From NCBI GenBank assembly GCA_001771505.1, contig MEUA01000005.1:10808-74807 (forward strand): DNA of 64,000 bases, in the 5' to 3' direction. Both the position numbers and the translations under genes were made by a program. How positions within the stretch are numbered: the first letter of the stretch is position 1; the number at the start of each line of letters is the position of its first letter. Source of the DNA: a candidate division WOR-1 bacterium RIFOXYB2_FULL_36_35. GTDB taxonomy: Bacteria > Margulisbacteria > WOR-1 > XYC2-FULL-46-14 > XYC2-FULL-37-10. The notes under the pieces are model-generated. The model was not told the origin of the DNA. It saw only the letters and a list, made by a program, of their open reading frames with translations, and searched no databases. Shown here one piece after another: positions 7,883 to 29,813 of this stretch.

Positions 7883-7934
7883 TATTCACCTCCAAACAAA
7901 CTTAAACCGACTAATTTTCGATAAACTCTGTTAT

Positions 7935-8918: not shown

Positions 8919-8945
8919 ATTAATCCCCTTTATAATATTTGCTAA

Positions 8946-11014: not shown

Positions 11015-11048
11015 GTCTTATATCTTAAATATATCAAAAACAAAAAAC

Positions 11049-12182: not shown

Positions 12183-12191
12183 ATGTTTTAT

Positions 12192-15051: not shown

Positions 15052-16180
15052 AAATTAATTCCAGTTTTCTATAATTAATATCCCAATTGGCTCTTTCTTG
15101 AGCAATTAAAAAATTTCTATGTCCCATTTTTATCCTAAGATTATGATTTGATAATAAATTTATCACTTTTGCAGAAATATCATTTGGACTTCTTGTCGGT
15201 ACAATGTATCCATTTTCACCATCATTTATCCACTCTAAATAAGAAGGAATATCTGTCGTAACAACAGGCAAAGAACAAGCCATTGCTTCTAAGAGAGATA
15301 AAGAAGTTCCATCGCTAAGAGAACAAGAAAGATATATATCTGCACTGTTGAAATACTCAGGCATTTTATCGTTAGGAATTGACTCCGCAAAATAAACATA
15401 GTCTCTTATGCCTAAATTAACCGTTAATTGTTCTAACTCCGAACGTAGTGGGCCATCCCCCACTAAAATAATACGAGTATTTGGATATGCTTTTATAATT
15501 TTTGGTATGGCTTTTATAAAATCATCCACAGCATAGATAGGGAAAAAAGATCTCGTCATTAATAAAATTTTTTTATCCTCCCAGCCTAAGGCTTTTCTTA
15601 TAAGGTTGTTTTTTTTATTTGGTTTAAATAAATCCAAATCTATTCCCCAAGGAAAAACTATTATTTTTTCGGAATCATAGTTTGAAAATTCAATAATTTT
15701 TTTCTTAACTATTTCACAATCACAAGTAATCATATCTGCTTTTGATAAAACATATTTTGTTTTACTCATCGTTCTTTTACTCTTCTCAGGAAAAACTAAT
15801 ATATCAGACCCCCAAGGCATTAATAAAAATGGATGAAAATCAGAAACTGCAGCTAAGAACCCATCTCCTTGCACCCAACCGGCATGAACAATATCAGGTT
15901 TTATTTTTTTTAGTTCTCTTTTAAACTTAATATAGCTTTGCATAAATGCTAACCAACATCTTATTTTTCTGGTAAAAATCGAATATTTTTCTGTCCCCAA
16001 TAAAACGGCATTAGGATTATAACGAATTATTTTTAGGCCTCTAAGGCCAGAAATATCTTGAGGCAAATCCTTTCCAGCAAAATGAGTAACAAGGTAAACA
16101 TCATGATCAAATTCACAAAGTTTTTTTAAGAATCTATAATCATGGACAATTAAATCTGAACTAATATAAAGAATACGCAT
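15026..16180 (-). CDS. GT4-type (GT-B) glycosyltransferase
   Basis: CSLSDGTSLSLLEAMACSLPVVTTD, the E-x7-E motif. Confidence 0.65.
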   Translation of the reverse strand: MRILYISSDLIVHDYRFLKKLCEFDHDVYLVTHFAGKDLPQDISGLRGLKIIRYNPNAVLLGTEKYSIFTRKIRCWLAFMQSYIKFKRELKKIKPDIVHAGWVQGDGFLAAVSDFHPFLLMPWGSDILVFPEKSKRTMSKTKYVLSKADMITCDCEIVKKKIIEFSNYDSEKIIVFPWGIDLDLFKPNKKNNLIRKALGWEDKKILLMTRSFFPIYAVDDFIKAIPKIIKAYPNTRIILVGDGPLRSELEQLTVNLGIRDYVYFAESIPNDKMPEYFNSADIYLSCSLSDGTSLSLLEAMACSLPVVTTDIPSYLEWINDGENGYIVPTRSPNDISAKVINLLSNHNLRIKMGHRNFLIAQERANWDINYRKLELIYGKLQKNK

Positions 16181-17280
16181 TAATAAAAATCCTTACCACT
16201 AACATTTTCCATGATTTCTTTAAACTTTGGAATAAAAATTTGAGAATATTTTTCCATTCCATCTGGAGACAAATGAGTTTCATCTATAAAAAATTCTCGA
16301 TCAAACTGAAAGTTTTTTTCGATGTCTATAATTGGAACATGACATTTATCTGCAGTTCTTCGAATATTTACATTTTCAATCAAAACACCTTTTTTAAGTT
16401 TTTTATATGTTGGTTTATTTTTTATTTCATCATAAACATAATATAAATAGGTAGTTAGTATGGGTAAAATGTTGTGTTCTTTGCATATTCCAATCATGGA
16501 TCTAATATTTTGATTTTCAACTGTAAGATTAAAATTATTAGAAAATAAGGGATAAGACTTTCTAATTAATCTGTTCAAGTCATAATTTATATTTCCAGTT
16601 CCCATATACTTATCTAACAAGTATTCATACAAATGCCAAAATTTAATTTTGGGTAATATATCTCTTGTTATCCTAATCAATTTAGATTCAGATAAATTTC
16701 GAAATAAATGGCTATAATCACTTTTAAACTCTGGCGCTAACGCAGGAATAAGATCATTAAGACCAAATCCAAATACAATAGCTTTAGGCTTAAGCTTAAC
16801 AAGAGTTGTGTAAAGATAAAATATAATATCCATGCTCGTCCATCCACCCCTTGCAACAGGTATAAAAGTATAATTGTCGCCAATCTTTTTATTTAAATAA
16901 TAAGGCAAAGAATAAAAAACTTCTTTATAATAATATCCTGTGCCAAAAGTGCAGTTACCTAAAAAAATAATTAAATTGTTTTTACTAACTAATTTCTCAT
17001 CAAACAATAAACCATATGAATTTGTTTTCATCGATGGATATATTAATTTATCATGAGTAATTGGTGATTCAACCTTTTCTTCTGGAATTGTACAATTTGT
17101 TTTATATGCGACTGGCAAGTATGGATGAGAAATAAAATGACTTTTATTAAATTCAATCTTATCAACCGGCTCATAAAATCTTCGATTTTTTAGTTTAAAA
17201 ACTATCCTAAAAACAATTTCACCTAAAACAATTAATAGTAAAATTATTGAAACCATTATATACAACACAATGTAAACCAA
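16180..17280 (-). CDS. membrane-anchored SGNH/GDSL-like hydrolase or O-acyltransferase-associated protein
   Basis: N-terminal TM helix. SGNH-like blocks FLGNCTFG (Cys where the Ser nucleophile sits), GFGLNDL (GxND) and DETHLSPDG (DxxH). Confidence 0.4.
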   Translation of the reverse strand: MVYIVLYIMVSIILLLIVLGEIVFRIVFKLKNRRFYEPVDKIEFNKSHFISHPYLPVAYKTNCTIPEEKVESPITHDKLIYPSMKTNSYGLLFDEKLVSKNNLIIFLGNCTFGTGYYYKEVFYSLPYYLNKKIGDNYTFIPVARGGWTSMDIIFYLYTTLVKLKPKAIVFGFGLNDLIPALAPEFKSDYSHLFRNLSESKLIRITRDILPKIKFWHLYEYLLDKYMGTGNINYDLNRLIRKSYPLFSNNFNLTVENQNIRSMIGICKEHNILPILTTYLYYVYDEIKNKPTYKKLKKGVLIENVNIRRTADKCHVPIIDIEKNFQFDREFFIDETHLSPDGMEKYSQIFIPKFKEIMENVSGKDFY

Positions 17281-17282
17281 TT

Positions 17283-18176
17283 TTATCTCCTTAACAATAA
17301 ATGTTCGCTTTTGTTTTTTAATTGTCTCAATATCAAGAGGATTAATTTTATTGGATTAAGCAATAATAAACTCCATGACTCCTTAATAACTTCTATTAGT
17401 CTACCATTTTTATAATATCCAAGCATAGTTGCTAAATGTATATTGTAAAAAGCTTCTTTTTTTAAGGTGGCAGGTAATAAGGGATTTCTTGCATATGCTT
17501 TTGCAATGACCGCTAAACTATCTTTTTTGTAATCTTCAGTGTGTGCCACTAAATAGTCTCTAACAATTCGATACTTTGATAATGTTTCGGCTATATGTTT
17601 TATTTGATAATGTTCTGAAATTCTAAGCCACATATCCCAATCAGCAGCACAAAACATTTTTTCATCAAAAAACCCAACAGAAGAAAAACACTCTTTTTTA
17701 ACAATAACAGTAGGGTTATTAATAAAATTCGATAATAACAATCTTTTAGAAACATATCCTGAGAAACCTGAACATTTATTTTCTGAAATTATTTCTCCTG
17801 CGAAATCTATTAAAAATATGTTTGTATAAACCAATCCAACATCCTCATCCATAAAACCTTTTAAACTTTCTTCCAATTTATTTGACAACCATAAATCATC
17901 ACAATCCAAAAAAGCAATGTATTTGCCCTTCGCTACTTTAATTCCTAAATTTCTTGCACTTGATACTCCACCATTTTCTTTATAAATGTAATAAATTTTA
18001 TCGCCAAAATTTCTCATGGCATCTCTTGTTCCATCAGTTGAGCCATCATCAACAACAATTATTTCAAAATCACAAAATGTCTGGGCTAAAACACTTTCTA
18101 CCGCCTGAGCTGTATAAGTTGCATAATTGTATGCAGGGATGACAACACTTACTTCAGACATTTCCTCTCCAATCAT
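17283..18176 (-). CDS. family 2 glycosyltransferase
   Basis: VSVVIPAYNYATYTAQAVESVLAQTFCDFEIIVVDDGSTDGT. Confidence 0.7.
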   Translation of the reverse strand: MIGEEMSEVSVVIPAYNYATYTAQAVESVLAQTFCDFEIIVVDDGSTDGTRDAMRNFGDKIYYIYKENGGVSSARNLGIKVAKGKYIAFLDCDDLWLSNKLEESLKGFMDEDVGLVYTNIFLIDFAGEIISENKCSGFSGYVSKRLLLSNFINNPTVIVKKECFSSVGFFDEKMFCAADWDMWLRISEHYQIKHIAETLSKYRIVRDYLVAHTEDYKKDSLAVIAKAYARNPLLPATLKKEAFYNIHLATMLGYYKNGRLIEVIKESWSLLLLNPIKLILLILRQLKNKSEHLLLRR

Positions 18177-19032
18177 TTATATACTCTTTTAAAGCTTCTT
18201 CCCAGTCTCTCATTATATTCATTTCCATAAGCTCCAATTTATAGTTTCTAATTCCTTCAGATTCAGCACGAGGAGCAGGCAATGGAAATTCTTCTGAAGA
18301 AACAGGTATTACTTTAATATTCTTTCCTATTATTTCTACAATTTTACAGGCAATATCATATCGACTGCAACAACCATTATTTCCAAGATGATATAATCCA
18401 TAACTACCTGTTTTAATAATTTTTTTAATACCTTCAACCAAATCTTTTGCGAAAGTTGGAGTACCATATTTATCATTTACCGCTTTAATTTCTTTTCTAC
18501 CTTCCAGGCAAAACTGGATAATTTTCCCAACAAATTTTTTATCCTTTTCTCTTCCGCCACCAATCATCCATCCAGCACGAAAAATATAATATCTGTTCAA
18601 TAAATTTTGAACAATTTTTTCCCCTTCATACTTCGATTTAGCATAAAAGCTTAGAGGCTCAGGAGAAGAAAATTCTGTCTGTATTTCCATTTTTTTGCCA
18701 TTAAAAACGCCACCTGTACTTACATAAACCATTTCACAATCAAATTTCTGACAGGCTAAAGCAATATTTTGAGTACCTAAAGTATTAGTTCGATAAGCAT
18801 GATCAATTTCTGTCTCACATTTATCAACATCTGTTTCTGCCGCAAGATGAAGAACAATATCCGGCTTATTCTTTTTAAAAAGACCAAAAACGTTATCTTT
18901 ATCTTTAATATCCATTTCAGGCAAATCAGTTAAAACCAAGGCTTCATCACTGAAAACTGCTCCAACATAACTTCCTACCATTCCATTTGCGCCGGTTACT
19001 AAAATCATGTATTCCCTCCAATAAATTATCAA
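18154..19032 (-). CDS. RmlD-like NAD(P)H-dependent 4-keto-6-deoxy-sugar reductase (dTDP-4-dehydrorhamnose reductase family)
   Basis: MILVTGANGMVGSYV ... LHLAAETDVDKCE. Length 292 aa, matching the RmlD substrate-binding fold. Confidence 0.6.
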   Translation of the reverse strand: MIIYWREYMILVTGANGMVGSYVGAVFSDEALVLTDLPEMDIKDKDNVFGLFKKNKPDIVLHLAAETDVDKCETEIDHAYRTNTLGTQNIALACQKFDCEMVYVSTGGVFNGKKMEIQTEFSSPEPLSFYAKSKYEGEKIVQNLLNRYYIFRAGWMIGGGREKDKKFVGKIIQFCLEGRKEIKAVNDKYGTPTFAKDLVEGIKKIIKTGSYGLYHLGNNGCCSRYDIACKIVEIIGKNIKVIPVSSEEFPLPAPRAESEGIRNYKLELMEMNIMRDWEEALKEYINDWRGNV

Positions 19033-20865
19033 TTAAGTATAAAAAGGCAATAAAGTTTGTTCTGTTAATGGCGAAAAAAAACTCTCCATCAACTGTCGTC
19101 CCCGAATTTTTATTTGATCAAGCTGCTTGTTAGTAAGCGTCAAAATCTTTTTTATTTCTCTTCCAATGTCTTCTGACGTTCGAGCTACAAACTGAGTTTC
19201 ATCCATTGAGATCCAATCCATAGGATCAAGAGTTAAATCAATATCGCTTCGCACTCTAATTACAGGCAATCCATAAGCGATAGCATCTAAAATTGTAGCT
19301 GAGGCTGTTGCAATCAACAACTTAGATTGTGCCATAAGATCATTAATATTTCCTTCTGTAATCTCAAATTTAAAAAAAGAATCAAACGTAACATTTAAAA
19401 TATCTTGCAATTCTTTCCTAGGCATCATTGGATGAGGCTTTATCAAGACTTTTAAATCCGAAATACTTTTTAATATTTTATAAGATTTTGATAATAATTC
19501 AAGAGCTGTAGATCGTAATAATGGAAGAGTTATCAAAATATAGAATTTCTCAATAGAATTACTAATATTTGCCTTTAATAAATATTGATAGCGCAAAGCT
19601 GGCCCCTCTGCCAAAACATTTGAAGGATATCCTTCTTTCAAAAGAATCTCTTTGAAAAACTTTCCTGAACAAATTACTTTATCCGGCAATGGTAGAACTT
19701 TCAGTTCATTAAATGAGGTATAGCAAGACAATAAAAGAGGAGGAATAGATGTATGTTGAAATCCAAGTAGCTTTGTTTTGGAATAATATTTTAATTTACC
19801 CATTATCAAGGGCTTCTCAGATATCATATTCTCAAAAGGTATAATGATTTTTTTTATTATAATTCCATTTTTTCTTAATTTCTCAACAAGAAAATAGTGC
19901 ATTATAAGACTTGACAAAGACCCTTCAAAAAAATCTCTTTTAAATGCTTGACGAAATATTAGCTTGAGGTTCCAGTCGTTGAATACAAAATCTTTTTTAA
20001 ACAAATGCCTTGATTTTAATATAATAAAAATAGTTTTTAAATAATCCGCTAAAGAATAAAAATCTTCAGGGATAATAAATTGAGCCTTTGCTTTTCTAAA
20101 CCACAAGATTGCTTCTTTATATGAACGTTTTATATTGTAAATTATTGGAATAATAGCAACAGTTTCTCCTTTTCTTTTTAAGTTTTCATGGAGGTCAACA
20201 AAATAAGAATCTTTAAATAGGCCCTCATCTCCCAAATTTCTTTCTCCTACCCAAGTTCTCAAAATTGTCAATGGTATATTTTTATTAATATGTTTTACAC
20301 CATAAATACGTGAATATATAACATATATTTTCTCTATAAAACTTCTTTTTGCAAAGCGGATTAAACTTATACAAGATTTCAAATAAAAACTCATCAATGC
20401 TTCTTTTTTATAGAATTTTGACACAGTATATTCTTTAAATAACTCAGATTCATAAATTGTCTCCAACAATTCAGGACTTTCAGAGAAAATACAAATGTTT
20501 TTATTTCTAATTTCATTTCCTTTTAATTGCTTAATAATATCCAAATAACAAACATACAGAAAAACGGGACTATCCATAACATTTTTTTCTGCTATTTTAG
20601 ATACCCACCAGTAAAAAGAAGAAAATCGACAGCTCAAATTGCCAATGAAATCAATATATTGTCTACGAAGTTTATATGATGTTGCGTATAAAAAGTCCCC
20701 TATGTCAATATAATGAAAATTTGAAGGCAAAGTTTTTTTTAGCTTTAATAATTTCTCATAGTCTCTACCCAAAAAAAAACAGTAAAAATCTCTATCCATA
20801 TCTTCTTTAGGAAAAGAAGCCTCCTCAGAAATTAATATTAACTTTTTTTTCTTTGAATTAGACAT
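19033..20865 (-). CDS. large (610 aa) GT-B-like transferase of uncertain specificity (capsule/teichoic-acid-type or CMP-sugar-dependent transferase)
   Basis: The C-terminal half, KVLIKPHPMM...LLIATASATILDAIAYGLPVIRV, matches the donor-binding half of GT-B enzymes. It lies directly upstream of a cytidylyltransferase. It is a paralog of the N-terminal region of the 32615-35122 ORF. Confidence 0.35.
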   Translation of the reverse strand: MSNSKKKKLILISEEASFPKEDMDRDFYCFFLGRDYEKLLKLKKTLPSNFHYIDIGDFLYATSYKLRRQYIDFIGNLSCRFSSFYWWVSKIAEKNVMDSPVFLYVCYLDIIKQLKGNEIRNKNICIFSESPELLETIYESELFKEYTVSKFYKKEALMSFYLKSCISLIRFAKRSFIEKIYVIYSRIYGVKHINKNIPLTILRTWVGERNLGDEGLFKDSYFVDLHENLKRKGETVAIIPIIYNIKRSYKEAILWFRKAKAQFIIPEDFYSLADYLKTIFIILKSRHLFKKDFVFNDWNLKLIFRQAFKRDFFEGSLSSLIMHYFLVEKLRKNGIIIKKIIIPFENMISEKPLIMGKLKYYSKTKLLGFQHTSIPPLLLSCYTSFNELKVLPLPDKVICSGKFFKEILLKEGYPSNVLAEGPALRYQYLLKANISNSIEKFYILITLPLLRSTALELLSKSYKILKSISDLKVLIKPHPMMPRKELQDILNVTFDSFFKFEITEGNINDLMAQSKLLIATASATILDAIAYGLPVIRVRSDIDLTLDPMDWISMDETQFVARTSEDIGREIKKILTLTNKQLDQIKIRGRQLMESFFSPLTEQTLLPFYT

Positions 20866-21595
20866 ACAGATTTTTTATTTTGTCTTTTTTCATAACATCT
20901 CTTACAATTGCCAGGTCTTCTGGTGTATCAACACTGATTTTTGCATCTTTAATTACAACTGCCCTTATTTTAATCCCGTGTTCCAAAATTCTTAAGTATT
21001 CATTATACTCTATAACTTCAAGAGGAGTTGGATCCCAAGAAGAATACTGCAACAAAAATTCTTTCCTAAATGGAACAATAAAACACATTTTCAACATTTC
21101 TCTTACATTTGTCCTGGCATTGCTTGGCAAATCTGCCCTAGAACAGTATAAAATATTTCCTTCCAAATCCAGTACTGCCTTTATATCAGAAGAACTTTCT
21201 TTTTTTGCATAAGATGTAACTCCTACTGAAATGTTAAGAGAAGAGTCTTCTATTAGTGGAGTAATAACCAAATCGATATGATCAGGGCTAACCAAAGGCT
21301 CATCACCCTGAACGTTAACAACAATATCACATTCTATTTGTTGACAAGCCTCGGCAAGACGATCAGATCCTGTTTTATGATGTTTTCCTGTCATGATAAC
21401 TTTAACACCATATTTCTCTCCTGCAACCTTTATCTCGTCACTATCTGTCACCAAATAAACTTCAGAAAGAAGTTTTGACCTTTGAGCTCGTTTGCAAGTA
21501 TGTATCACCATGGGAATTCCTTCTATGTCTATTAAAGCCTTCCTTGGCAACCTGCTTGATTCAAGCCTTGCCGGAACCATACCTACAATTTTCAT
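20858..21595 (-). CDS. KdsB/NeuA-family CMP-ulosonate cytidylyltransferase
   Basis: MKIVGMVPARLESSRLPRKAL, the signature N-terminal motif of the CMP-Kdo / CMP-NeuAc synthetase family. Confidence 0.75.
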   Translation of the reverse strand: MKIVGMVPARLESSRLPRKALIDIEGIPMVIHTCKRAQRSKLLSEVYLVTDSDEIKVAGEKYGVKVIMTGKHHKTGSDRLAEACQQIECDIVVNVQGDEPLVSPDHIDLVITPLIEDSSLNISVGVTSYAKKESSSDIKAVLDLEGNILYCSRADLPSNARTNVREMLKMCFIVPFRKEFLLQYSSWDPTPLEVIEYNEYLRILEHGIKIRAVVIKDAKISVDTPEDLAIVRDVMKKDKIKNLYV

Positions 21596-21602
21596 TTATC
21601 TC

Positions 21603-22373
21603 TTACACTCCCTTAAAATCTTGAATTATTTTTTTAAAAATCCTAAAAAGCTCGGTTACTTCCAAAGAATAAGTTATAAACTGTATTCCAATTTCCTTAA
21701 ACCATTTAAGCTGTTCTTGATTGTCAGTAAAAGCTCCAACAGAAATTCCTTTCTCTCTCACCTTAGCAACAGCTCTTAAAACGGCATCTTTTACTTTTGG
21801 GTGAGTTATTTGTCCTGGCAAACCAATTGATTGGGAAATATCACAAAGCCCTAAGTAAATAACATCAATATCTTTATCCTCAATAATAGAATCAAGGTTT
21901 TCTAGTCCATTTTTACCTTCTACAATAAAAATACTCATAGTCTCTTCATTGGCTTTTTTAGTATGAAGAGTAAGATCAGAGGGTGAATAACCTGCAGAAC
22001 GAGTGAAAGGAGAAAAGCCACGATTTCCTATGGGAAAATATTTAATAGACTGTAATGCCTTTTCTTTATCTGCCCTGTTTTCAATATGTGGAACCACAAC
22101 TCCATACGCCCCAATGTCTAAAGCTCGCAGTATATCTGATTCATCGTTTTTTGGGACACGAATAAAAGGTGTACAGCCCTCAACTTCAGATGCTCGAATC
22201 ATACCCTCTGCAGTTTCAAAACTAATAGGCCCATGTTCCATATCTATTATTACAAAATCCAAGCCCGAAGCTCCCAAAACATTAACAGAAGATTCTGAAG
22301 GTAAAATACACCAAGTACCTAAAAGAATTTCTCCTTTTTTTAATTTTTCCTTAATAATATTCTTTCTTATCAT
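21603..22373 (-). CDS. HpcH/HpaI-family class II (pyruvate-specific) aldolase
   Basis: A TIM-barrel pattern, EHGPISFETAEGMIRA ... PFIRVP ... VEGKNGLENLD, typical of 2-keto-3-deoxy-acid aldolases. Confidence 0.7.
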   Translation of the reverse strand: MIRKNIIKEKLKKGEILLGTWCILPSESSVNVLGASGLDFVIIDMEHGPISFETAEGMIRASEVEGCTPFIRVPKNDESDILRALDIGAYGVVVPHIENRADKEKALQSIKYFPIGNRGFSPFTRSAGYSPSDLTLHTKKANEETMSIFIVEGKNGLENLDSIIEDKDIDVIYLGLCDISQSIGLPGQITHPKVKDAVLRAVAKVREKGISVGAFTDNQEQLKWFKEIGIQFITYSLEVTELFRIFKKIIQDFKGV

Positions 22374-22388
22374 ATATTTATTTTCTCC

Positions 22389-23144
22389 TTAAAAAACTTC
22401 TATTTTAGAAACATCATCAATTAAGAATTTAGTTAAAGCGCCTAACTGTTCTTTTGGAGTTATCCCAGAAGAAACAGCAATAGATGCTTTTACTTTTGCA
22501 TTATCACCCATTTTTATATCTGTTATGGCATCCCCGATCATCACACTTTCTTCTTTTTTAATATTCAATTTCTTTGTAATATAATCAATCATGTCTGAAG
22601 CAGGCTTAGGATTGTCAACTGCATCACAACCAATAATACAGGCAAATTTATCAGTTAATTTTAAGTAATCCATAGACAACTCAGCCCTTGATGTTTTATC
22701 TGTAGTTGCAATGGCTAGTTTGCAAGATTTTGAATGTAAAGAATCAATTAAACTCAACATTCCATTTATTGGTTTTATCAAACCATCCAACTTGTTTTCT
22801 GTTTGAACATCAATATCTTTAAAACAATCCAAACAAACTTCATAAGCTTTTTTATACCCTTTTGCCTCTAAATAATCAACAGCCGCCTGCATAACTATTT
22901 CTCTCTTTTTGATCCCAACGGGTCCTTCTGGACGAAGACAATTATTTTCTTGGTCAACCCCCATCTCAAAAACAATCCGGTTTGTATCATCTTTTGATAA
23001 AAAAAACTTTTCTGATATAAGATAAGCCCGCATCTTTATCATTTGAGACCAATAATGATACAAATCAATTAATGTACCATCCCTGTCAAAAATGACTAAA
23101 TTAATATTATTAATAATTTCGTTATTAACTTTTAAATTAACCAC
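22389..23144 (-). CDS. HAD-superfamily hydrolase (phosphatase)
   Basis: Motif I VIFDRDGTLID (DxD), plus later K and DD motifs. Confidence 0.65.
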   Translation of the reverse strand: MVNLKVNNEIINNINLVIFDRDGTLIDLYHYWSQMIKMRAYLISEKFFLSKDDTNRIVFEMGVDQENNCLRPEGPVGIKKREIVMQAAVDYLEAKGYKKAYEVCLDCFKDIDVQTENKLDGLIKPINGMLSLIDSLHSKSCKLAIATTDKTSRAELSMDYLKLTDKFACIIGCDAVDNPKPASDMIDYITKKLNIKKEESVMIGDAITDIKMGDNAKVKASIAVSSGITPKEQLGALTKFLIDDVSKIEVF

Positions 23145-24141
23145 TAATTGCCTCCAAATTTTGATCGACTAATTTTTTTGCAATCACAAGCCCTTTTTTT
23201 AAAATCCTCAAATCACTGTCAAAATCTTTATGATTTATAAATTCAGCAACCAGTTTACGGGCATAAGTCCCAATGGAAACCCCATTAACTTTAACCCCAC
23301 AAAGATGACAAAGTTCACCTGTTCTACTATTAGTACCACCTGAAGCCAAAATAATAACCGGCAATTTACTTTTTCTTACAATATCAGAAATTGCAACTGC
23401 CTGAAGAGTAGTATTGTAATCATCGCTTCCCCCACTCATTGGAACGCCATCTGCTTGAATAATCATTCTATCAGGAGCAAAAGCCAAAGCATCCTTTATT
23501 CTCTTCAAAAGATGTATATCAGACAATTGTGAACGATCTAAACACATACTAATATAATTATTTTTTAAATACTTATTCACCAATTTCCAATCCTGCATGA
23601 CAGAATCATCATCGGAAATAATTGCATGCAATTCAAATGTTTCCACTCCATTTACTAAACAAGCAGGGAGTATTTTATCTAATTCTCTCCTTTTATCAAA
23701 AAACTGAACTGCGCTTGAAGGGCAAATTTTTGAACATTCACCACAACCGATACAACGTTTTTCTATTATTTGATGCTCATTACTAATTGCATTTTGAACA
23801 CACACAGACAAACAAGCCCCGCAATGGAGACACTTGGCCTGGGCAACATTCGCTTTCCTAATATGAGGATCACCACGCATACCAATGCTAACATTAATAA
23901 ATGGTCTTGTTCTAAGCTCTATTCCAAGTTTTGGCGCAATCTCGTAGGCTTGATTAACTCCAAGGACAGAACTTTTTACTACATCAAGATTTGCTGAAAT
24001 ATCAATACCAAGTGCGCCAGCTAAAGTATAAAGAAGAGACAACTTTCGAACCTCTTCTGCATCTTCATTTCCAGCTCCACACACAATTTTAAAGTATTGA
24101 CTCTTCTCAAAAATCGATTTTAACTCTTCAAATCTATTCAT
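23137..24141 (-). CDS. 4Fe-4S dicluster (ferredoxin-type) domain protein with an additional uncharacterised domain
   Basis: Two CxxCxxCxxxCP motifs, CLHCGACLSVC and CIGCGECSKICP. The flanking ~250 aa are unrecognised. Confidence 0.6.
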   Translation of the reverse strand: MNRFEELKSIFEKSQYFKIVCGAGNEDAEEVRKLSLLYTLAGALGIDISANLDVVKSSVLGVNQAYEIAPKLGIELRTRPFINVSIGMRGDPHIRKANVAQAKCLHCGACLSVCVQNAISNEHQIIEKRCIGCGECSKICPSSAVQFFDKRRELDKILPACLVNGVETFELHAIISDDDSVMQDWKLVNKYLKNNYISMCLDRSQLSDIHLLKRIKDALAFAPDRMIIQADGVPMSGGSDDYNTTLQAVAISDIVRKSKLPVIILASGGTNSRTGELCHLCGVKVNGVSIGTYARKLVAEFINHKDFDSDLRILKKGLVIAKKLVDQNLEAISG

Positions 24142-25853
24142 AAGTAATTATTTATCCCTTTGTAAAACTTCCTATAATTTGTAGGAGTAATAATGTGAAT
24201 CCCTTCCCCTCCCTTACCACACAGATATTCCTCAATTTCCTCCAAATGCTTTAAATTTCCAAAATGTTTATCCAAAATCACATCTCTATCCCCAGTTTCA
24301 TCATTTTCTTTATAAAAATGAACATCCCCATCAGCAGTAGCGCGCATATAACCATCAAGTCCTGCGACAAAAATACGTTTTGCTCCAAAAACCCATGATA
24401 AAGCAATTAAGAAGATAGAAACAGTTCTGCAATTTGAACTAATTAATCCATCTTTGATATCAAAGGCAACATCATCTAGATCATTATAATAAATAAGTTC
24501 ATACTCGCGTCTTACATAATCATCAATCATCTCCTTTGGAATATGTTGACCAATTAAAAGCTTAGATTTGAGAGAAACAGTATCCACATAGTCAACAAAC
24601 CGACGCTTATTGGTAAATAAGTGATAATCAGGAACAAAAAGCCCTCCTAAGTAATTAGCCCCTAAAACTATTGGTTTGTACTTTTCAATAAAAAGAGAAA
24701 TTAAGTCTTTATACTTTTTTAAACTTGGTCCATTTGCCAAAACCAAAAAATCTGACCCATTATGTCTATTAACATAAGAAATTTTGTCACTGTTTTCGTT
24801 TATCCCTTTTTGTTCATTTTCAGCAGGTTTTAAAGCCTTTTTCTTGCCAAATAGTCCATCACGAATAATTTGATCAACAATGTCTTTTTTAAAGCCTATT
24901 GGTTTCTTGGCTTTTATGACTTCAAAAATATTCCAGATATCTTCAATGTCATACTCTTTTCGCTCAACCAAATTTTTAGCATAGTTTGGATGACATTCAT
25001 TAATACCTGAAAGCATATAGGGTAAATTATATCCCCAAAAGTTTTTTTCTTTTAGTTCAACAAAAAATCGATCAATCAAATTTAATACTGGGATTACGTT
25101 ATACTTGCCTGGCATCATTTGATGAAAATAGGAAAGTAAAATTTCTGTTGGTAAATTACCAGCACCACGCCCCATACCAAAAACAGAAGAATCAACAATA
25201 TCTACTCCAGCATCAATTGCAGCAAAAGTATTAGCAAAAGACATTAGTAAATTATTATGTGGATGAAATCCTAATTTAAAGTTTCTATCCTTTAACAAAG
25301 GGGTAAACAACTCTTTTATTTCATGAGGAAACATGGACCCATAGCTATCAGCTATATATACGTAATCTATCCCCTCTTGATTAATTAAAAAAACTAATTC
25401 ATTTAACTCGTCAGTAGAATAACTAATGTATCCCATCAAATTTACAGACACTAAAAAGCCAAGTCTTTTTATTTGTCCCGCAATATTAACTGCTTCCTTT
25501 GCTTTATCTTTATGAAAGGCCAACCTAATTAATGAAACATTGGTACCAAGATATTGGTTTAAATCATTTAAATCAAACTTACCATAATCAACCATTAAAG
25601 CAATTTTTGCCCCATTTATTCCTCCTGTAACACTTTTTATATCTTCAAAAGAAGTAAAACGAAATCTCCCAAACTTTTTAGGATCAAAAAAATGTTCTAC
25701 TCCATGATAGCCCAATTCTATATAATCAATACCAGCTTTTGAGAGTGCTCGATAGGTTTCACGTACTAATTTGAGATCAAAATCCCAATTGTTAACATAT
25801 CCCCCATCACGAATGGTACAATCAAGAATTTCTATTTTATTCTTATCCTTCAC
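24138..25853 (-). CDS. fusion protein: N-terminal HMGL-like (DRE-TIM metallolyase / pyruvate carboxyltransferase) aldolase domain + C-terminal CstII/Maf (DUF115)-like sialyltransferase-like domain
   Basis: N-terminal ILDCTIRDGGY ... FHPHNN (DRE-TIM family). C-terminal VLANGPSLKKY ... VAGLDGY resembles the GNGPSL and SGIDFY regions of GT42 sialyltransferases and Maf proteins. Confidence 0.45.
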   Translation of the reverse strand: MKDKNKIEILDCTIRDGGYVNNWDFDLKLVRETYRALSKAGIDYIELGYHGVEHFFDPKKFGRFRFTSFEDIKSVTGGINGAKIALMVDYGKFDLNDLNQYLGTNVSLIRLAFHKDKAKEAVNIAGQIKRLGFLVSVNLMGYISYSTDELNELVFLINQEGIDYVYIADSYGSMFPHEIKELFTPLLKDRNFKLGFHPHNNLLMSFANTFAAIDAGVDIVDSSVFGMGRGAGNLPTEILLSYFHQMMPGKYNVIPVLNLIDRFFVELKEKNFWGYNLPYMLSGINECHPNYAKNLVERKEYDIEDIWNIFEVIKAKKPIGFKKDIVDQIIRDGLFGKKKALKPAENEQKGINENSDKISYVNRHNGSDFLVLANGPSLKKYKDLISLFIEKYKPIVLGANYLGGLFVPDYHLFTNKRRFVDYVDTVSLKSKLLIGQHIPKEMIDDYVRREYELIYYNDLDDVAFDIKDGLISSNCRTVSIFLIALSWVFGAKRIFVAGLDGYMRATADGDVHFYKENDETGDRDVILDKHFGNLKHLEEIEEYLCGKGGEGIHIITPTNYRKFYKGINNYL

Positions 25854-27681
25854 AGGCTACCTCTTTTCGAACAAACTGGTTCGACAAACTACTTCTTTCT
25901 TTATTATATATTGCCCAATAAAACCCTTTCATTGAAAGAAGCTCTTCATGTTTTCCCTCCTCAACAACCTCTCCCTTTTCAAGCACAATAATTTTGTCAG
26001 AATCAATCACTGTAGAAAGCCGATGAGCTATAACAATAACAGTTCTATTTCTAGAAATATTATTTATTGCTTTTTGAACTATTGCTTCTGAAATGTTGTC
26101 TAAAGAACTTGTAGCTTCATCTAAAATAAGTATTTCAGGTTTATGAACCAAAGCTCTAGCAATTGCAATACGCTGCCTCTGCCCTCCAGATAATTTCATT
26201 CCCCTATCTCCAACAACAGTTTCATATCCGTCAGCAAGAGATGCTACAAAGTCATGAACATTCGCATCTTTTGCAGCTTGAATAATCTCATTCATATCAA
26301 CATTTAGACCAAAAGCAATATTCTCTGCAAGTGACGCATTAAATATAAAGGTATCTTGAGTAACAAATCCTATTTTTGAAAGCCAGGAACTTATTTTACA
26401 ATCTTTAATATCTATGCCATCAATTAAAATTCTGCCATAATTAACATCAAAAAGCCTTATAATTAAATCTGCAATCGTAGACTTGCCCGCGCCAGAATGA
26501 CCAACAATAGCAGTCATTTTCCCCTTTTCAAAAGAAAGCTTCAATCCCTTCAACACTCCTTTACGCCCAGGATAAGAAAAACTTACATCCTCAAATTTTA
26601 TCTCTTTCTTAAATTCTTTTATCTCCTCGGGCCCATCCTTAATTTGCTTAATATTCTTATTTAAAAGTGAGTAAAGAATTTCTACAATAGGCAAAGTTCC
26701 CATAATTTGAATTCTCAAATTCCCAAGTTGTGAAAGAGAAGGCATTATTTTTTGAAAAGCATACGCAAATGTCCCAAGTATTGGCAAAATAACTGCAAAA
26801 TCAGCAGAATATAAAACTTTGGCTAAAATCAGCAATAACGATAAAAGCACGATAGTCATCGTATCCAATAAATACCCTGGTATAAGTGAGAACTCCCTAT
26901 CTTTTTTTGCCAATTTAAAATAGTCCTGCATAGCTGCAAAAAAGTTCTTTATCCAACGATTTTCAGAAGAAAACACTTTTATTTGTCTTATCCCGCTTAT
27001 TGTTTCACCAAGTAAAACATTTTGTTTCTCACAAGCCACCACTCGCCCCTTCCCCATGTTGTAAGAAATATTACTTGCTATATACTTAGTTAAATAATAA
27101 TATAAAACACCGACCAAAATTATCGCGCCTGATGCATAAGGTGAAATCCCGATCAAAATAAACCCAACTGCCAATAATTTAGCAAACTCTGAAAGAGCTT
27201 GAGGTAAATAAGTAAGAATACTGCCAAGGGACGATGGCGCAGAATAAACCCGATATATAATTTCTCCTTGTTTATGATCAAGGAAATACTGATAATCTGC
27301 AGAAATACATTTTACAAATACTTTTTCTTGAATGTCCTGCCAAACTTTAAAGCCAGCAACAGAACTAACAATGCTCTGTAAATATCCAAACCCATTCTTA
27401 AAAATTACTGAAAAAATAAGCAATAGACAAGAGCTAATAAGTTTGTCTTTTATAGGAAAAAAATTTAAAATAAAAGTTATTATCTTGGCAATTCCTCCTG
27501 CATCAGCATTAATTCCAACCGCAGAATTTAATATTGAGAATAATATCAATACATTGATACCATCAAAAAAAGAACTCGCAAAAGTTAATATAGTAATTCC
27601 AAAAATATAATGCGGATACGGCTTTAAAAAATACCAACATATTTTCAAGCGAGGATTATTTATAAAATTTAAGAATTTCAT
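25843..27681 (-). CDS. ABC exporter, fused TMD-NBD (MsbA/PglK-like lipid-linked glycan or lipid flippase type)
   Basis: Six predicted N-terminal TM helices. Walker A GHSGAGKST, signature LSGGQRQRIAIARAL, Walker B ILILDEATSSLD. Confidence 0.85.
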   Translation of the reverse strand: MKFLNFINNPRLKICWYFLKPYPHYIFGITILTFASSFFDGINVLILFSILNSAVGINADAGGIAKIITFILNFFPIKDKLISSCLLLIFSVIFKNGFGYLQSIVSSVAGFKVWQDIQEKVFVKCISADYQYFLDHKQGEIIYRVYSAPSSLGSILTYLPQALSEFAKLLAVGFILIGISPYASGAIILVGVLYYYLTKYIASNISYNMGKGRVVACEKQNVLLGETISGIRQIKVFSSENRWIKNFFAAMQDYFKLAKKDREFSLIPGYLLDTMTIVLLSLLLILAKVLYSADFAVILPILGTFAYAFQKIMPSLSQLGNLRIQIMGTLPIVEILYSLLNKNIKQIKDGPEEIKEFKKEIKFEDVSFSYPGRKGVLKGLKLSFEKGKMTAIVGHSGAGKSTIADLIIRLFDVNYGRILIDGIDIKDCKISSWLSKIGFVTQDTFIFNASLAENIAFGLNVDMNEIIQAAKDANVHDFVASLADGYETVVGDRGMKLSGGQRQRIAIARALVHKPEILILDEATSSLDNISEAIVQKAINNISRNRTVIVIAHRLSTVIDSDKIIVLEKGEVVEEGKHEELLSMKGFYWAIYNKERSSLSNQFVRKEVACEG

Positions 27682-28763: not shown

Positions 28764-29813
28764 TTACTCAATTACAAGATCCCAAGTTATCGGGGTTCCT
28801 TTCTTTGTATTTTTAGAAATTTTTTTACCCAATAAATCATTTATATGTTTTGGAGAAATTCCGCCAGCAGGTCTAATAGATTTTAAATTATCTAAAGTGA
28901 ATAGATCTCCTGCTTTCATATCATTTACAACATAAAGTGAACGCCTAAATCTCATTGTTTTTTTCTCTTCGGCAGTAGGGATATAATTAACCGTCCCCAA
29001 TGCTTGCCATGCACGTTCAGACTCAATCACTAAATCATGCATCTCTTGTGGCTCCATTGAAAAGGCTGAATCAATTCCTCCATCAACTCGTGATAACGTA
29101 AAGTGCTTCTCAATAACTGTTGCACCTAAAGCAACACTAGCAACAGAAACACCTAGGCCTAAAGTGTGATCAGATATTCCAACAGAACAATTAAATCTAG
29201 CCATCATGTCTGGAATTGTTAATAAATTAGAGCTAGATGGAATTGCAGGATAAGAACTTGTACATTTAAGAAGAACAATCTTGTCATTCCCTTCATTTTT
29301 ACAAGCATCAATAGCTTCTTGAATTTCTTCTATTGTTGCCATCCCTGTAGACATAATTATAGGCTTTCCTGTTGAAGCTATTTTTTTAATTAATGGAATA
29401 TCAACAATTTCAAAAGAAGCTATTTTATAACAAGGAACATTTAAAGATTCCAAAAAGTTAACTGCAGGTTCATCAAACGGAGTGCTAAACCCAATAATTC
29501 CTAATTCTTTACATTTATCAAAAATAGGCTTATGCCATTCCCATGGGGTATAAGCTTCTTTGTATAAATCGTAAAGTTTTTTTCCCTTCCACAGACTATT
29601 AGAGTCATTAATAATAAACCCTTCCGCATTTGAATCAAGTGTCATTAAATCTAACGAAAATGTTTGAAGTTTAAGCGCATCTACTTTACACTTTGCGGCT
29701 GCTTCAACAATATGCAAAGCTCTTTCAATCGACTGATTGTGATTGCCAGACATTTCAGCAATAATGAAAGGTTTAATTTTTTCCCCAATCTTTATATTAA
29801 TACGTTCTTTCAT
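28764..29813 (-). CDS. NeuB-family nonulosonic acid synthase (PseI/LegI/NeuB-like, PEP-dependent), copy 1
   Basis: PFIIAEMSGNHNQSIERALHIVEAAAKCKVDALKLQTF (NeuB N-terminal TIM-barrel motif) and a C-terminal SAF/antifreeze-like domain. Confidence 0.8.
   Translation of the reverse strand: MKERINIKIGEKIKPFIIAEMSGNHNQSIERALHIVEAAAKCKVDALKLQTFSLDLMTLDSNAEGFIINDSNSLWKGKKLYDLYKEAYTPWEWHKPIFDKCKELGIIGFSTPFDEPAVNFLESLNVPCYKIASFEIVDIPLIKKIASTGKPIIMSTGMATIEEIQEAIDACKNEGNDKIVLLKCTSSYPAIPSSSNLLTIPDMMARFNCSVGISDHTLGLGVSVASVALGATVIEKHFTLSRVDGGIDSAFSMEPQEMHDLVIESERAWQALGTVNYIPTAEEKKTMRFRRSLYVVNDMKAGDLFTLDNLKSIRPAGGISPKHINDLLGKKISKNTKKGTPITWDLVIE

What the first reader, a model, noticed from the sequence alone, without database searches (positions are those of the whole stretch)
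19033..25853. Unconventional candidate keto-deoxy (ulosonic) sugar module: pyruvate-type HpcH aldolase + HAD phosphatase + KdsB-like cytidylyltransferase + 4Fe-4S protein + aldolase/sialyltransferase-like fusion + 610-aa GT-B protein
Known CMP-activated ulosonic acids (Kdo, Neu5Ac, Pse, Leg, Kdn) are all built by PEP-dependent KdsA/NeuB-type synthases. This 6.8-kb block instead combines an HpcH/HpaI class II pyruvate aldolase (21603-22373), a HAD phosphatase (22389-23144) and a KdsB/NeuA-type cytidylyltransferase (20858-21595). That is the logical trio for making and CMP-activating a 2-keto-3-deoxy acid by a pyruvate aldol route. Next to them are a ferredoxin-type 4Fe-4S dicluster protein (23137-24141), a second aldolase-type domain fused to a CstII/Maf-like CMP-sugar transferase domain (24138-25853), and a large GT-B-like protein (19033-20865). 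The locus already carries two canonical NeuB synthases elsewhere, so this block is not a redundant copy. It looks like a third, mechanistically different acidic-sugar branch with its own transferase, and it could be an undescribed pathway.
Basis: partly seen in the sequence, partly recalled or inferred. Interest (0 to 1): 0.78.

Follow-up and report, generated by a model that had tools for sequence, protein, structure and literature searches.

The report
Aldolase-based CMP-sugar-acid gene cassette
Six translationally coupled genes in a Saganbacteria surface-polysaccharide locus form a cassette, conserved from Bacteria to methanogenic Archaea, that probably makes, CMP-activates and transfers an acidic keto-deoxy sugar using pyruvate aldolases instead of the usual PEP-dependent synthase; no paper describing this route was found.

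Summary

- **Domains:** HpcH/HpaI class II aldolase; HAD-IA phosphatase; KdsB-family cytidylyltransferase. A 2x[4Fe-4S] protein, more exactly an LdpA-like barrel with an inserted ferredoxin module. A DmpG-like DRE-TIM domain fused to a Maf-like (DUF115) domain. A 610-aa GT-B protein.
- **Conservation:** the block recurs in the same order in about 20 loci. These include Saganbacteria, Margulisiibacteriota, Syntrophorhabdaceae, Planctomycetota/Brocadiaceae, Omnitrophota, Hydrothermarchaeota and the cultured methanogen Methanocalculus taiwanensis.
- **No PEP-dependent partner:** cassette loci carry no KdsA-like gene, and few carry a NeuB. In the window, each of the two NeuB genes has another cytidylyltransferase nearby.
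- **HpcH** forms its own clade, far from catabolic HpaI/GarL, with catalytic residues intact.
- **The cytidylyltransferase** just passes KdsB HMM cut-offs. Its sugar-pocket signature is MVEY, where canonical KdsB has HYEQ.

What is not shown: the product, the role of each aldolase, and the role of the Fe-S protein. The most constant partners across variants are the aldolase/Maf fusion and the cytidylyltransferase, not HpcH. Verdict: a real and probably undescribed variant of CMP-ulosonic-acid pathways.

The parts
24138..25853 (-). 571-aa fusion protein of a DRE-TIM (HMGL-like, DmpG-related) domain and a Maf-like/DUF115 domain. It is the most widely conserved member of the cassette.
   Evidence: ORF. 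PF00682 scores 96 bits and PF01973 gives E 0.002. The family has at least 1850 homologues, with the top 120 at 49% identity or more. Among A3 members, HMGL-like matches 37 of 37 and MptE-like 32 of 37. The AF2 model has pLDDT 79.5.
25044..25838 (-). N-terminal DRE-TIM barrel (aa 6-270). It carries an 'RDGGY' motif and an HxH metal site. The closest solved relative is the N-terminal domain of BVU_2661 (3dxi).
24141..24785 (-). C-terminal Maf-like / DUF115 (MptE-like) alpha/beta domain (aa ~357-571). It has ANGPSLK, CRT and GLDGY motifs and is a candidate CMP-ulosonate transferase domain.
23137..24141 (-). 334-aa LdpA-like protein, inferred to be a phosphate-binding TIM barrel, with an inserted 2x[4Fe-4S] ferredoxin module. 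Its enzymatic role is unknown.
   Evidence: LdpA_C scores 52.5 bits, several Fer4 families match, and DUF561 gives a faint N-terminal hit. NF045992 LdpA scores 160 bits against a cut-off of 450. Only ferredoxin modules match in the PDB by sequence. Both CxxCxxCxxxC motifs and SGGT are kept in all 13 orthologues. No structure was predicted.
23692..23853 (-). Inserted dicluster module (aa ~97-150), with motifs C104-x2-C-x2-C-x3-C114 and C130-x2-C-x2-C-x3-C140.
22389..23144 (-). 251-aa HAD-IA (C1-cap) phosphatase with motif I DRDGT. It is the inferred phosphatase for a phosphorylated ulosonate intermediate.
   Evidence: HAD_2 scores 94.7 bits and Hydrolase 82.8 bits. No equivalog cut-off is reached; the best is PpaX at 84 against 218. 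DxDGT is present in all full-length orthologues.
21603..22373 (-). 256-aa HpcH/HpaI-type class II (metal-dependent) pyruvate aldolase from a glycan-locus-specific clade.
   Evidence: PF03328 scores 94 bits. It is below the equivalog cut-offs for HpaI (152 of 369), GarL (136 of 407) and RhmA (99 of 441). H47, R72, E152 and D178 correspond to HpaI H45, R70, E149 and D175 and are conserved. Clade placement comes from the NJ tree.
20858..21595 (-). 245-aa KdsB-family cytidylyltransferase with a non-canonical sugar pocket. It is the inferred CMP-ulosonate synthetase.
   Evidence: CTP_transf_3 scores 143 bits. NF009905 scores 256.5 against 255 and TIGR00466 scores 160.1 against 155.2. The best PDB match is E. 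coli KpsU 1gq9 at 135 bits. The signature at E. coli KdsB positions 181/185/210/211 is MVEY versus HYEQ. Identity across phyla and domains is mostly 73-76%, ranging 50-76%.
19033..20865 (-). 610-aa GT-B-fold protein with an extra N-terminal region, distantly related to the TIGR04326 family. It is the inferred glycosyltransferase for the activated acid.
25843..27681 (-). 612-aa ABC half-transporter (ABC_membrane + ABC_tran) whose stop overlaps the fusion gene's start by 11 nt. It is frequently linked to the cassette but is not part of the core.
   Evidence: Pfam result. It lies directly upstream of the cassette also in L011, L016, L017 and L019.
18154..19032 (-). 292-aa RmlD-like NAD(P)-dependent reductase that abuts the GT-B gene. 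It is a frequent neighbour but not core.
   Evidence: RmlD_sub_bind scores 234 bits. Homologues lie near the cassette in L010, L011, L019 and L025.

Best explanation
The six genes form a self-contained, horizontally mobile cassette. It builds a 3-deoxy-2-ulosonic (alpha-keto-deoxy) acid sugar, activates it as a CMP-sugar and adds it to a surface glycan. The carbon backbone is made by metal-dependent pyruvate aldolase chemistry rather than by a PEP-dependent KdsA/NeuB-type synthase.

Proposed flow (all steps inferred):
1. The LdpA-like Fe-S protein supplies or tailors a phosphorylated carbonyl precursor.
2. A class II aldolase condenses pyruvate with that aldehyde to give a phosphorylated 4-hydroxy-2-oxo acid. 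This is either HpcH, whose catalytic residues are intact, or the RDGGY-type DRE-TIM domain. The second aldolase-type domain makes the precursor or tailors the product.
3. The HAD-IA phosphatase removes the phosphate and pulls the reversible aldol step forward.
4. The KdsB-like enzyme uses CTP to make the CMP-activated acid.
5. The GT-B protein and/or the Maf-like domain of the fusion transfer it to the glycan.

This logic parallels Kdo (KdsD-KdsA-KdsC-KdsB-WaaA) and animal sialic acid (GNE-NANS-NANP-CMAS-sialyltransferase) step by step, with aldolases in the synthase slot. The altered sugar pocket of the cytidylyltransferase suggests that the product is not Kdo.

Shown: gene content, domain and fold identities, conserved catalytic residues, conservation as a unit, and absence of KdsA/NeuB partners. 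Inferred: every chemical step and the product.
For: - **Operon-like packing** of the six genes.
- **Conserved cassette.** The order fusion > LdpA-like > HAD > HpcH > KdsB-like > GT-B recurs in L010, L011, L013, L016-L019, L025, L027, L032 and L090, with permuted orders in L029, L097, L099, L110 and L166. These span Bacteria and Archaea and include the isolate Methanocalculus taiwanensis.
- **Glycan context.** The loci also carry GT2, GT4, Wzx, an initiating transferase, and DegT and CDP-hexose genes.
- **No PEP-dependent synthase partner.** No KdsA-like hit was found in the window or in any cassette locus. The probe did detect a KdsA-like fragment in an unrelated locus, which shows it was sensitive. 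NeuB lies near only 3 of 19 related cassettes.
- **Spare cytidylyltransferase.** The window has three CTP_transf_3 genes for two NeuB genes.
- **HpcH.** The catalytic H, R, E and D residues are conserved. It forms its own clade, whose sister clades also sit in sugar-nucleotide loci, one of them again next to a KdsB-family gene and a 610-like GT-B.
- **Cytidylyltransferase.** Nucleotide and metal motifs are kept, but the pocket signature is MVEY where 68 of about 130 KdsB-family representatives have HYEQ.
- **GT-B fold** for the 610-aa protein, including similarity to the WaaA CMP-Kdo-binding domain.
- **Minimal variant.** L092 has fusion > HAD > cytidylyltransferase > GT-B, which matches a synthase-phosphatase-activase-transferase scheme.
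- **Precedent.** A preprint identifies AtGPP2 as the plant Kdo-8-phosphate phosphatase (bioRxiv 10.64898/2026.05.02.722439, abstract seen). That GPP2 and human NANP are HAD-type phosphatases outside the KdsC family is from my own knowledge.
Against: - There are no biochemical or glycan-structure data for any member.
- The cytidylyltransferase passes the NCBIfam and TIGRFAM KdsB cut-offs, so the product could be Kdo.
- Two aldolase-type enzymes are more than one backbone condensation needs, and their roles cannot be separated in silico.
- The DRE-TIM domain has Tyr in place of DmpG's catalytic His.
- HpcH and the Fe-S protein are dispensable in some variants (L092), and the cytidylyltransferase was not found in L014 and L040.
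- A related HpcH clade sits with DmpF/DmpG and a YerE-like ThDP enzyme. There the aldolase product is more likely a side-chain donor for a branched sugar than a CMP-sugar.
- Pyruvate aldol equilibria are less favourable than PEP-driven condensation.
- Whole genomes could not be searched for kdsA or neuB.
Confidence: 0.5

Rival explanations
1. The cassette is an accessory to NeuB-made nonulosonic acids. The KdsB-like enzyme, the Maf-like domain and the GT-B protein activate and transfer a Leg/Pse-type sugar made by the neighbouring NeuB genes. The aldolases and the Fe-S protein remodel it (for example C4 epimerisation by retro-aldol and aldol steps) or make an N-acyl or side-chain substituent.
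For: The window holds two NeuB modules, one only 2.9 kb upstream. In L092 the only cytidylyltransferase seen near a NeuB is the cassette-type one. Maf-family enzymes are nonulosonic-acid transferases. A 4-hydroxy-2-oxo-acid aldolase could in principle cleave and re-form an ulosonic acid (inference).
Against: Sixteen of 19 related cassette loci have no NeuB within the fetched flanks. The window already has other CTP_transf_3 genes near each NeuB. The cassette cytidylyltransferase belongs to the KdsB family, not the NeuA/PseF/LegF families (PseF model 39.9 bits against a cut-off of 205.7).
Confidence: 0.15
2. The cytidylyltransferase is simply a capsule-type CMP-Kdo synthetase paralogue, like E. 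coli KpsU. It uses Kdo made by a housekeeping KdsA elsewhere in the genome. The GT-B and Maf-like domains are Kdo transferases. The aldolases, the HAD protein and the Fe-S protein serve an unrelated sugar in the same locus.
Against: Three of the four positions that are HYEQ in canonical KdsB are changed to MVEY, and this holds across cassette orthologues. That these four residues contact Kdo is from my memory of the E. coli structures and was not checked against a paper. The gene stays tightly linked and co-oriented with the aldolase, HAD and Fe-S genes across phyla. The cassette also occurs in Archaea, which make no LPS. No kdsA was found in any locus.
Confidence: 0.15
3. The two aldolases build a non-glycosidic 2-oxo-acid building block, for example a branch or substituent donor as in yersiniose-type branched sugars. 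The CMP enzyme then activates something other than a ring-form ulosonic acid.
For: A sister HpcH clade is embedded in CDP-hexose loci with DmpF, DmpG and a YerE-like ThDP enzyme. CDP-hexose pathway genes and an RmlD-like reductase often flank the cassette. B12-radical-SAM genes are frequent neighbours.
Against: The cassette contains no ThDP enzyme. All characterised KdsB/NeuA-family enzymes activate the anomeric hydroxyl of 2-ulosonic acids (established knowledge). The presence of Maf-like and GT-B transferases fits a CMP-sugar donor.
Confidence: 0.1
4. The arrangement is a chance juxtaposition of catabolic aldolases with glycan genes and has no shared function.
For: HpcH and DmpG relatives are classically catabolic enzymes.
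Against: Order and orientation are conserved in about 20 loci from distant lineages. The reading frames overlap. HpcH falls outside the catabolic equivalogs. No DmpF partner or DmpG_comm domain is present.
Confidence: 0.02

Closest known systems
Kdo pathway (KdsD, KdsA, KdsC, KdsB, WaaA/KpsS/KpsC), including the capsule paralogue KpsU
   Same: It contains a KdsB-family cytidylyltransferase with CTP and metal motifs intact, whose best solved match is KpsU. It also contains a HAD phosphatase and a GT-B transferase. The overall logic is precursor, then keto-deoxy acid phosphate, then free acid, then CMP-acid, then glycan.
   Different: There is no KdsA (PEP-dependent DAHP-synthase-fold synthase) and no SIS-type KdsD. 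The phosphatase is HAD-IA rather than the KdsC type. The cytidylyltransferase pocket signature is MVEY rather than HYEQ. Two class II aldolase-type domains and an Fe-S protein are present. The cassette also occurs in Archaea.
Nonulosonic acid (Neu/Leg/Pse) modules: NeuB-type synthase + NeuA/LegF/PseF + Maf or GT42/GT52 transferases
   Same: It has a Maf-like (DUF115) transferase-type domain and a CMP-activation step. It sits in a locus that also carries two NeuB modules.
   Different: Most cassette loci have no NeuB in the cassette or nearby. The cytidylyltransferase is KdsB-type, not NeuA/PseF/LegF-type. The Maf-like domain is fused to a DRE-TIM barrel, an architecture not described for characterised Maf proteins.
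Class II pyruvate aldolases HpaI/HpcH, GarL, RhmA(YfaU) and DmpG/BphI
   Same: HpcH shares the fold and the catalytic His/Arg/Glu/Asp with HpaI. The fusion shares the DRE-TIM fold, the Arg-Asp motif and the HxH metal site with DmpG.
   Different: HpcH is about 30% identical or less and scores far below every equivalog cut-off, and its context is biosynthetic. The DRE-TIM domain has Tyr for DmpG's catalytic His, lacks the DmpG communication domain and lacks a DmpF partner. Its closest relative is the uncharacterised BVU_2661 (3dxi).
LdpA (cyanobacterial circadian redox-input Fe-S protein) / Ycf23 (DUF561)
   Same: It shares the LdpA_C domain, two [4Fe-4S] binding motifs and overall length.
   Different: It scores 160 bits against a cut-off of 450 for the LdpA equivalog. 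It sits in a sugar-biosynthesis operon in non-phototrophs and Archaea. No enzymatic function is known for either protein.

Membership tests
KdsB (CMP-Kdo synthetase) | Score at or above curated HMM cut-offs | tested here: met
   NF009905 scores 256.5 bits (cut-off 255) and TIGR00466 scores 160.1 (cut-off 155.2). It is below the cut-offs of NF003948 (168 of 281) and NF003950 (180 of 234).
KdsB (CMP-Kdo synthetase) | Nucleotide- and metal-binding motifs (PAR..S.RLP.K, QGDEP, VDTPEDL) | tested here: met
   Alignment to E. coli KdsB and KpsU.
KdsB (CMP-Kdo synthetase) | Canonical sugar-pocket residues (E. coli KdsB H181, Y185, E210, Q211; their role as Kdo contacts is from my memory of the crystal structures) | tested here: not met
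   The window protein has M, V, E, Y, as do its orthologues. HYEQ occurs in 68 of about 130 KdsB-family representatives.
KdsB (CMP-Kdo synthetase) | Partner KdsA in the locus or genome | tested here: inconclusive
   No KdsA-like hit was found in the window or in any cassette locus. Whole genomes could not be searched.
HpcH/HpaI class II pyruvate aldolase | Pfam domain and catalytic residues (HpaI H45, R70, E149, D175) | tested here: met
   PF03328 scores 94 bits. H47, R72, E152 and D178 are conserved or invariant.
HpaI / GarL / RhmA catabolic equivalogs | Equivalog HMM cut-off and clade membership | tested here: not met
   Scores are 152 of 369, 136 of 407 and 99 of 441. It forms a separate clade in the NJ tree.
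DmpG/BphI 4-hydroxy-2-oxovalerate aldolase | DRE-TIM fold with Arg-Asp and HxH metal ligands | tested here: met
DmpG/BphI 4-hydroxy-2-oxovalerate aldolase | Catalytic His (DmpG H21), DmpG communication domain, DmpF partner | tested here: not met
   The motif is RDGGY instead of RDGSH. There is no DmpG_comm hit and no DmpF in the cassette. TIGR03217 scores 126 of 286.
Maf / DUF115 (MptE-like) nonulosonic-acid glycosyltransferase | Pfam PF01973 at gathering score | tested here: not met
   This protein scores 18.2 bits against 34.6. However, 32 of 37 homologues match at E of 0.01 or lower, best 3e-9.
Maf / DUF115 (MptE-like) nonulosonic-acid glycosyltransferase | Fold similarity to solved Maf | tested here: met
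GT42 sialyltransferase (CstII) | Profile similarity including the CMP/carboxylate-binding motif | tested here: inconclusive
   hhalign finds only a local match of fusion residues 471-506 to CstII 124-160, E 0.0028, probability 11%. CST-I Pfam matches 1 of 37 members.
GT-B glycosyltransferase | Two-Rossmann GT-B fold | tested here: met
TIGR04326 surface carbohydrate biosynthesis protein family | HMM cut-off | tested here: not met
   It scores 58.7 bits against 250.
LdpA | Equivalog HMM cut-off | tested here: not met
   NF045992 scores 160 bits against 450. Pfam LdpA_C is met at 52.5 against 22.2.
2x[4Fe-4S] ferredoxin-type module | Two CxxCxxCxxxC motifs | tested here: met
   The motifs span C104-C114 and C130-C140 and are kept in all 13 orthologues.
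HAD phosphatase | Motif I DxDGT and HAD Pfam domains | tested here: met
   The motif is DRDGT at residue 20, and HAD_2 scores 94.7 bits. The substrate is unknown and no KdsC model appears among the matches shown.
PEP-dependent ulosonate synthase (KdsA/NeuB) as module member | Presence of such a gene inside the cassette | tested here: not met
   None is present among the six genes. The KdsA probe was negative, and NeuB lies near only 3 of 19 related cassettes.

The most novel reading that the evidence does not exclude
The cassette encodes a previously unknown, PEP-independent route to a new CMP-activated ulosonic acid that is neither Kdo nor a NeuB-type nonulosonic acid, and the route is shared by Bacteria and Archaea. 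Class II pyruvate aldolases would replace the KdsA/NeuB synthase. An LdpA/Ycf23-family Fe-S protein would act as a sugar-phosphate enzyme, giving that family its first biochemical function. A DRE-TIM/Maf fusion would couple synthesis to transfer.
Probability: 0.35. Interest if true: 0.85.

Novelty: new variant of a known kind. Interest (0 to 1): 0.7.

Why it matters
To my knowledge, every known CMP-activated keto-deoxy sugar acid (Kdo, sialic, legionaminic and pseudaminic acids, Kdn) has its backbone made by a PEP-dependent KdsA/NeuB-type synthase. An aldolase-based route would be a second biochemical solution to the same problem.

It would also mean that genome surveys which use NeuB and KdsA as markers miss a class of acidic surface sugars. 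That class is widespread in uncultured anaerobes, anammox bacteria, Omnitrophota, Saganbacteria and some methanogens.

It offers a first enzymatic context for LdpA/Ycf23-like Fe-S proteins and for the large uncharacterised 'aldolase catalytic domain-containing' BVU_2661 family, distant members of which turned up on human-gut metagenome contigs.

The cassette is present in a cultured organism, Methanocalculus taiwanensis P2F9704a, so the idea can be tested directly.

Tried and rejected
- **Literature.** Seven full-text searches ran (an eighth failed on term syntax). They covered HpcH/aldolase with cytidylyltransferase, LdpA with polysaccharide, 3DXI/BVU_2661/DUF115, DmpG-type aldolase with glycosylation, Maf with aldolase, and KdsB residue numbers. 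None found a paper describing the cassette. The SugarBase preprint reports new CMP-ulosonic acids but does not mention aldolases. The JBC paper on the KdsB mechanism is not held, and the PLoS One KdsB paper gave no residue list. The Kdo-contact assignment of H181, Y185, E210 and Q211 therefore rests on my memory plus the conservation count.
- **Sequence searches of the PDB.** A profile search with the fusion family found nothing for the C-terminal domain. The 610-aa protein found nothing either.
- **LdpA-like protein.** Pfam on a construct with the Fe-S insert removed gave only LdpA_C and a faint DUF561 hit.
- **Rfam.** Nothing was found in the window.
- **Rejected readings.** A catabolic HpaI/GarL role for HpcH was rejected on HMM scores, tree placement and context. 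The Fe-S protein as a plain ferredoxin was rejected because it is a 334-aa LdpA-like protein. The weak Radical_SAM Pfam hits in 12 fusion homologues were set aside as probably spurious (my judgement, not tested): the alignment's invariant Cys residues, C12, C287 and C475, do not form a CxxxCxxC motif.

Full report
**Observation**

- 24138-25853 (571 aa)
- 23137-24141 (334 aa)
- 22389-23144 (251 aa)
- 21603-22373 (256 aa)
- 20858-21595 (245 aa)
- 19033-20865 (610 aa)

Neighbouring genes overlap by 4-8 nt or are separated by 7-15 nt. The upstream ABC-exporter gene overlaps the first cassette gene by 11 nt, and an RmlD-like reductase gene abuts the last. The 64-kb window is almost entirely one minus-strand surface-polysaccharide locus. 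It carries Wza, Wzz, Wzy, many glycosyltransferases, two NeuB genes and an acetamidino-forming trio. It matches metagenome contigs of a candidate division WOR-1 (Saganbacteria) bacterium.

**Domain identities**

Pfam and NCBIfam confirm the following.
- An HpcH/HpaI aldolase.
- A HAD-IA phosphatase.
- A KdsB-family cytidylyltransferase.
- A protein with two 4Fe-4S motifs.
- An HMGL-like (DRE-TIM) domain followed by a weak MptE-like/DUF115 match.

The Fe-S protein is more than a ferredoxin. It is a 334-aa LdpA-like protein with an LdpA_C domain and a faint DUF561/Ycf23 hit. The dicluster module is inserted at residues ~97-150. Both cluster motifs and an SGGT motif are kept in all 13 orthologues examined. 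I infer that it is a phosphate-binding TIM barrel, but I could not predict its structure.

**Conservation**

A scan of species-representative genomes with an HpcH alignment, followed by local tblastn and ORF clustering, shows the order fusion > LdpA-like > HAD > HpcH > KdsB-like > GT-B in these lineages:
- Saganbacteria and Margulisiibacteriota.
- Several Syntrophorhabdaceae, Syntrophales and other 'delta' MAGs.
- A Hydrothermarchaeota MAG and a Methanobacteriota MAG.
- The cultured methanogen Methanocalculus taiwanensis (taxonomy).

Other loci carry permuted or partial versions:
- A permuted version occurs in a Planctomycetales MAG.
- A Brocadiaceae genome has the full set.
- Metagenome contigs add further examples, including the order HpcH > fusion > LdpA-like > HAD > KdsB-like > GT-B.

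The cytidylyltransferase is mostly 73-76% identical across these lineages (range 50-76%). HpcH is 43-64% identical and the GT-B protein only 23-30% outside close relatives. Flanking genes are typical glycan-locus genes: GT2, GT4, DegT aminotransferases, CDP-hexose pathway genes, an initiating transferase, Wzx and B12-radical-SAM enzymes.

**Is this a redundant or catabolic set?**

The window has three CTP_transf_3 genes for two NeuB genes, and the other two lie near the NeuB genes. An E. coli KdsA sequence that I recalled from memory served as a probe. It found no KdsA-like gene in the window or in any cassette locus. It did detect a KdsA-like fragment in an unrelated locus, which shows the probe was sensitive. 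NeuB is present near only 3 of 19 related cassettes.

HpcH scores far below the equivalog cut-offs for HpaI, GarL and RhmA. It keeps the catalytic residues H47, R72, E152 and D178. In a neighbour-joining tree the cassette-linked proteins form their own clade, distant from HpaI and from a solved dehydro-deoxyglucarate aldolase.

Two sister clades are also embedded in sugar loci.
- One lies directly downstream of a different KdsB-family gene. It is accompanied by FAH, GFO/IDH/MocA, SIS, DHQS-like, DegT and 610-like GT-B genes.
- The other lies between DmpF/DmpG and a YerE-like ThDP enzyme, in CDP-hexose loci.

**The cytidylyltransferase**

It just passes two KdsB models, and its best solved relative is the capsule enzyme KpsU. 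Alignment with E. coli KdsB and KpsU shows intact nucleotide and metal motifs. At E. coli positions 181, 185, 210 and 211 it has M, V, E, Y instead of H, Y, E, Q, and all cassette orthologues share this. In a search of 1.84 billion representative proteins, 68 of about 130 full-length relatives carry HYEQ. The closest relatives of the window protein carry MVEY, AVEY or AVEF. That these residues contact Kdo is from my memory of the crystal structures. The conservation pattern is a tool result. Together they suggest a sugar acid other than Kdo, but they do not prove it.

**Which aldolase is the synthase?**

This cannot be settled in silico. Across variants the most constant pair is the DRE-TIM/Maf fusion plus a KdsB/NeuA-family cytidylyltransferase.
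- L092, from a 171-kb contig, has fusion > HAD > cytidylyltransferase > GT-B, without HpcH or the Fe-S protein.
- A distant fusion subfamily, including human-gut contigs, almost always lies next to a cytidylyltransferase and often next to a PfkB kinase.

That pairing could mean either 'synthase plus activase' or just 'activase plus transferase', because the fusion contains the Maf-like domain. The DRE-TIM domain keeps the Arg-Asp and HxH metal site. It has an invariant Tyr where DmpG has its catalytic His, as does 3dxi, and it lacks the DmpG communication domain. It is therefore a distinct subfamily whose chemistry is untested.

**Best explanation**

I regard the block as a self-contained module that makes a phosphorylated keto-deoxy acid by pyruvate aldol chemistry, dephosphorylates it, CMP-activates it and transfers it. 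It parallels the Kdo pathway and the animal sialic-acid pathway step by step, with aldolases in the synthase slot. Confidence is about 0.5 for the general scheme and much lower for individual step assignments.

The rivals are:
- An accessory role for NeuB-derived nonulosonic acids.
- A plain KpsU-like CMP-Kdo branch that uses Kdo made elsewhere.
- Production of a 2-oxo-acid side-chain donor, as suggested by the DmpFG/ThDP sister loci.

**Novelty**

Seven literature searches found no description of this cassette. That does not prove absence, because subscription-journal papers are largely not held. The parts belong to known families, and the overall logic follows known CMP-ulosonate pathways. 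I therefore rate it a new variant of a known kind. If the product is a new ulosonic acid and the Fe-S protein proves catalytic, it would rank higher.

Noticed in passing
window 32615-35122 (-): In this 835-aa protein only residues 596-796 match CTP_transf_3, and the N-terminal ~590 residues have no Pfam hit. It sits in the NeuB (28764-29813) sub-cluster with AP_endonuc_2, two acetyltransferases and a PIG-L deacetylase. It may be an unknown domain, perhaps a transferase, fused to a CMP-nonulosonate synthetase.
   Followed up: no
window 13567-15051 (-); also L013, L025, L029, L090, L097: B12-binding radical-SAM genes recur right next to the cassette. One HpcH homologue (P0093) is fused to a Radical_SAM domain. 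A recent preprint reports CMP-ulosonic acids with extended carbon chains. A role for these enzymes in C-methylation of the sugar acid is only my speculation.
   Followed up: partly
L024, L035, L036, L037, L046, L051, L065, L070, L079 (around position 6000-13000 in each): A sister HpcH clade lies in a conserved block: glucose-1-P cytidylyltransferase, SDR, DmpF (acetaldehyde dehydrogenase), DmpG (with communication domain), HpcH, a ~600-aa ThDP enzyme that looks YerE-like (my reading of its three TPP_enzyme domains), SDR, and a DegT-family protein that I suspect is E1-like. This looks like a pathway for a branched-chain CDP-sugar with a longer side chain. I found no description of it.
   Followed up: partly
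L062, L064 (Coxiellaceae), L080, L081, L083 (around position 2000-14000): A second HpcH clade lies directly downstream of a different KdsB-family gene (motifs RPGLRVAEA and KQVxIMPFRK). Its neighbours are FAH-family, GFO/IDH/MocA, SIS, SDR, DHQS-like, DegT and 610-like GT-B genes. This is another candidate aldolase-based CMP-sugar-acid module.
   Followed up: partly
L141, L137, L144 (human-gut metagenome contigs), positions ~8000-16200: A distant relative of the fusion (530 aa) sits in the order DUF4422 > CTP_transf_3 > fusion > PfkB kinase > 933-aa DUF4422 + MptE-like protein, downstream of a sigma-70-family gene. It looks like a flagellin or surface glycosylation island of a gut bacterium. 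A Chloroflexota locus, L091, shares the fusion, cytidylyltransferase and PfkB trio.
   Followed up: partly
window 25843-27681 (-): An ABC half-transporter inside a Wzx/Wzy-type locus overlaps the fusion gene's start, and I read it as PglK/MsbA-like. It is also directly upstream of the cassette in L011, L016, L017 and L019. It may flip a lipid-linked intermediate that carries the acid sugar.
   Followed up: no
window 54804-56369 and 56366-57739 (-): Two overlapping ORFs of 521 and 457 aa have no Pfam hit on record. They lie between a DAO-type oxidoreductase gene and the Wzz gene.
   Followed up: no
window 37297-39066 (-); L091 6793-8781: A 589-aa protein carries a precomputed LIC12162-family hit (PF27859) but no hit in the Pfam copy searched here. 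Similar ~600-660-aa unannotated proteins recur beside cassettes and NeuB genes (clusters 17, 19 and 25). They may be further large glycosyltransferases for acidic sugars.
   Followed up: no
window 11049-13570 (-): A GATase (HisH-like) gene, a His_biosynth (HisF-like) gene and a gene with a weak NAD_synthase hit lie downstream of the cassette region. From my own knowledge this resembles the WbuX/Y/Z-type set that forms acetamidino groups on amino sugars.
   Followed up: no
L025 6452-8116: The Methanocalculus taiwanensis fusion orthologue (554 aa) keeps RDGGY but lacks the CRT and GMDGY motifs of the Maf-like domain. Its 610-like gene is on the opposite strand. The archaeal version may therefore have a divergent or lost transferase domain.
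   Followed up: partly
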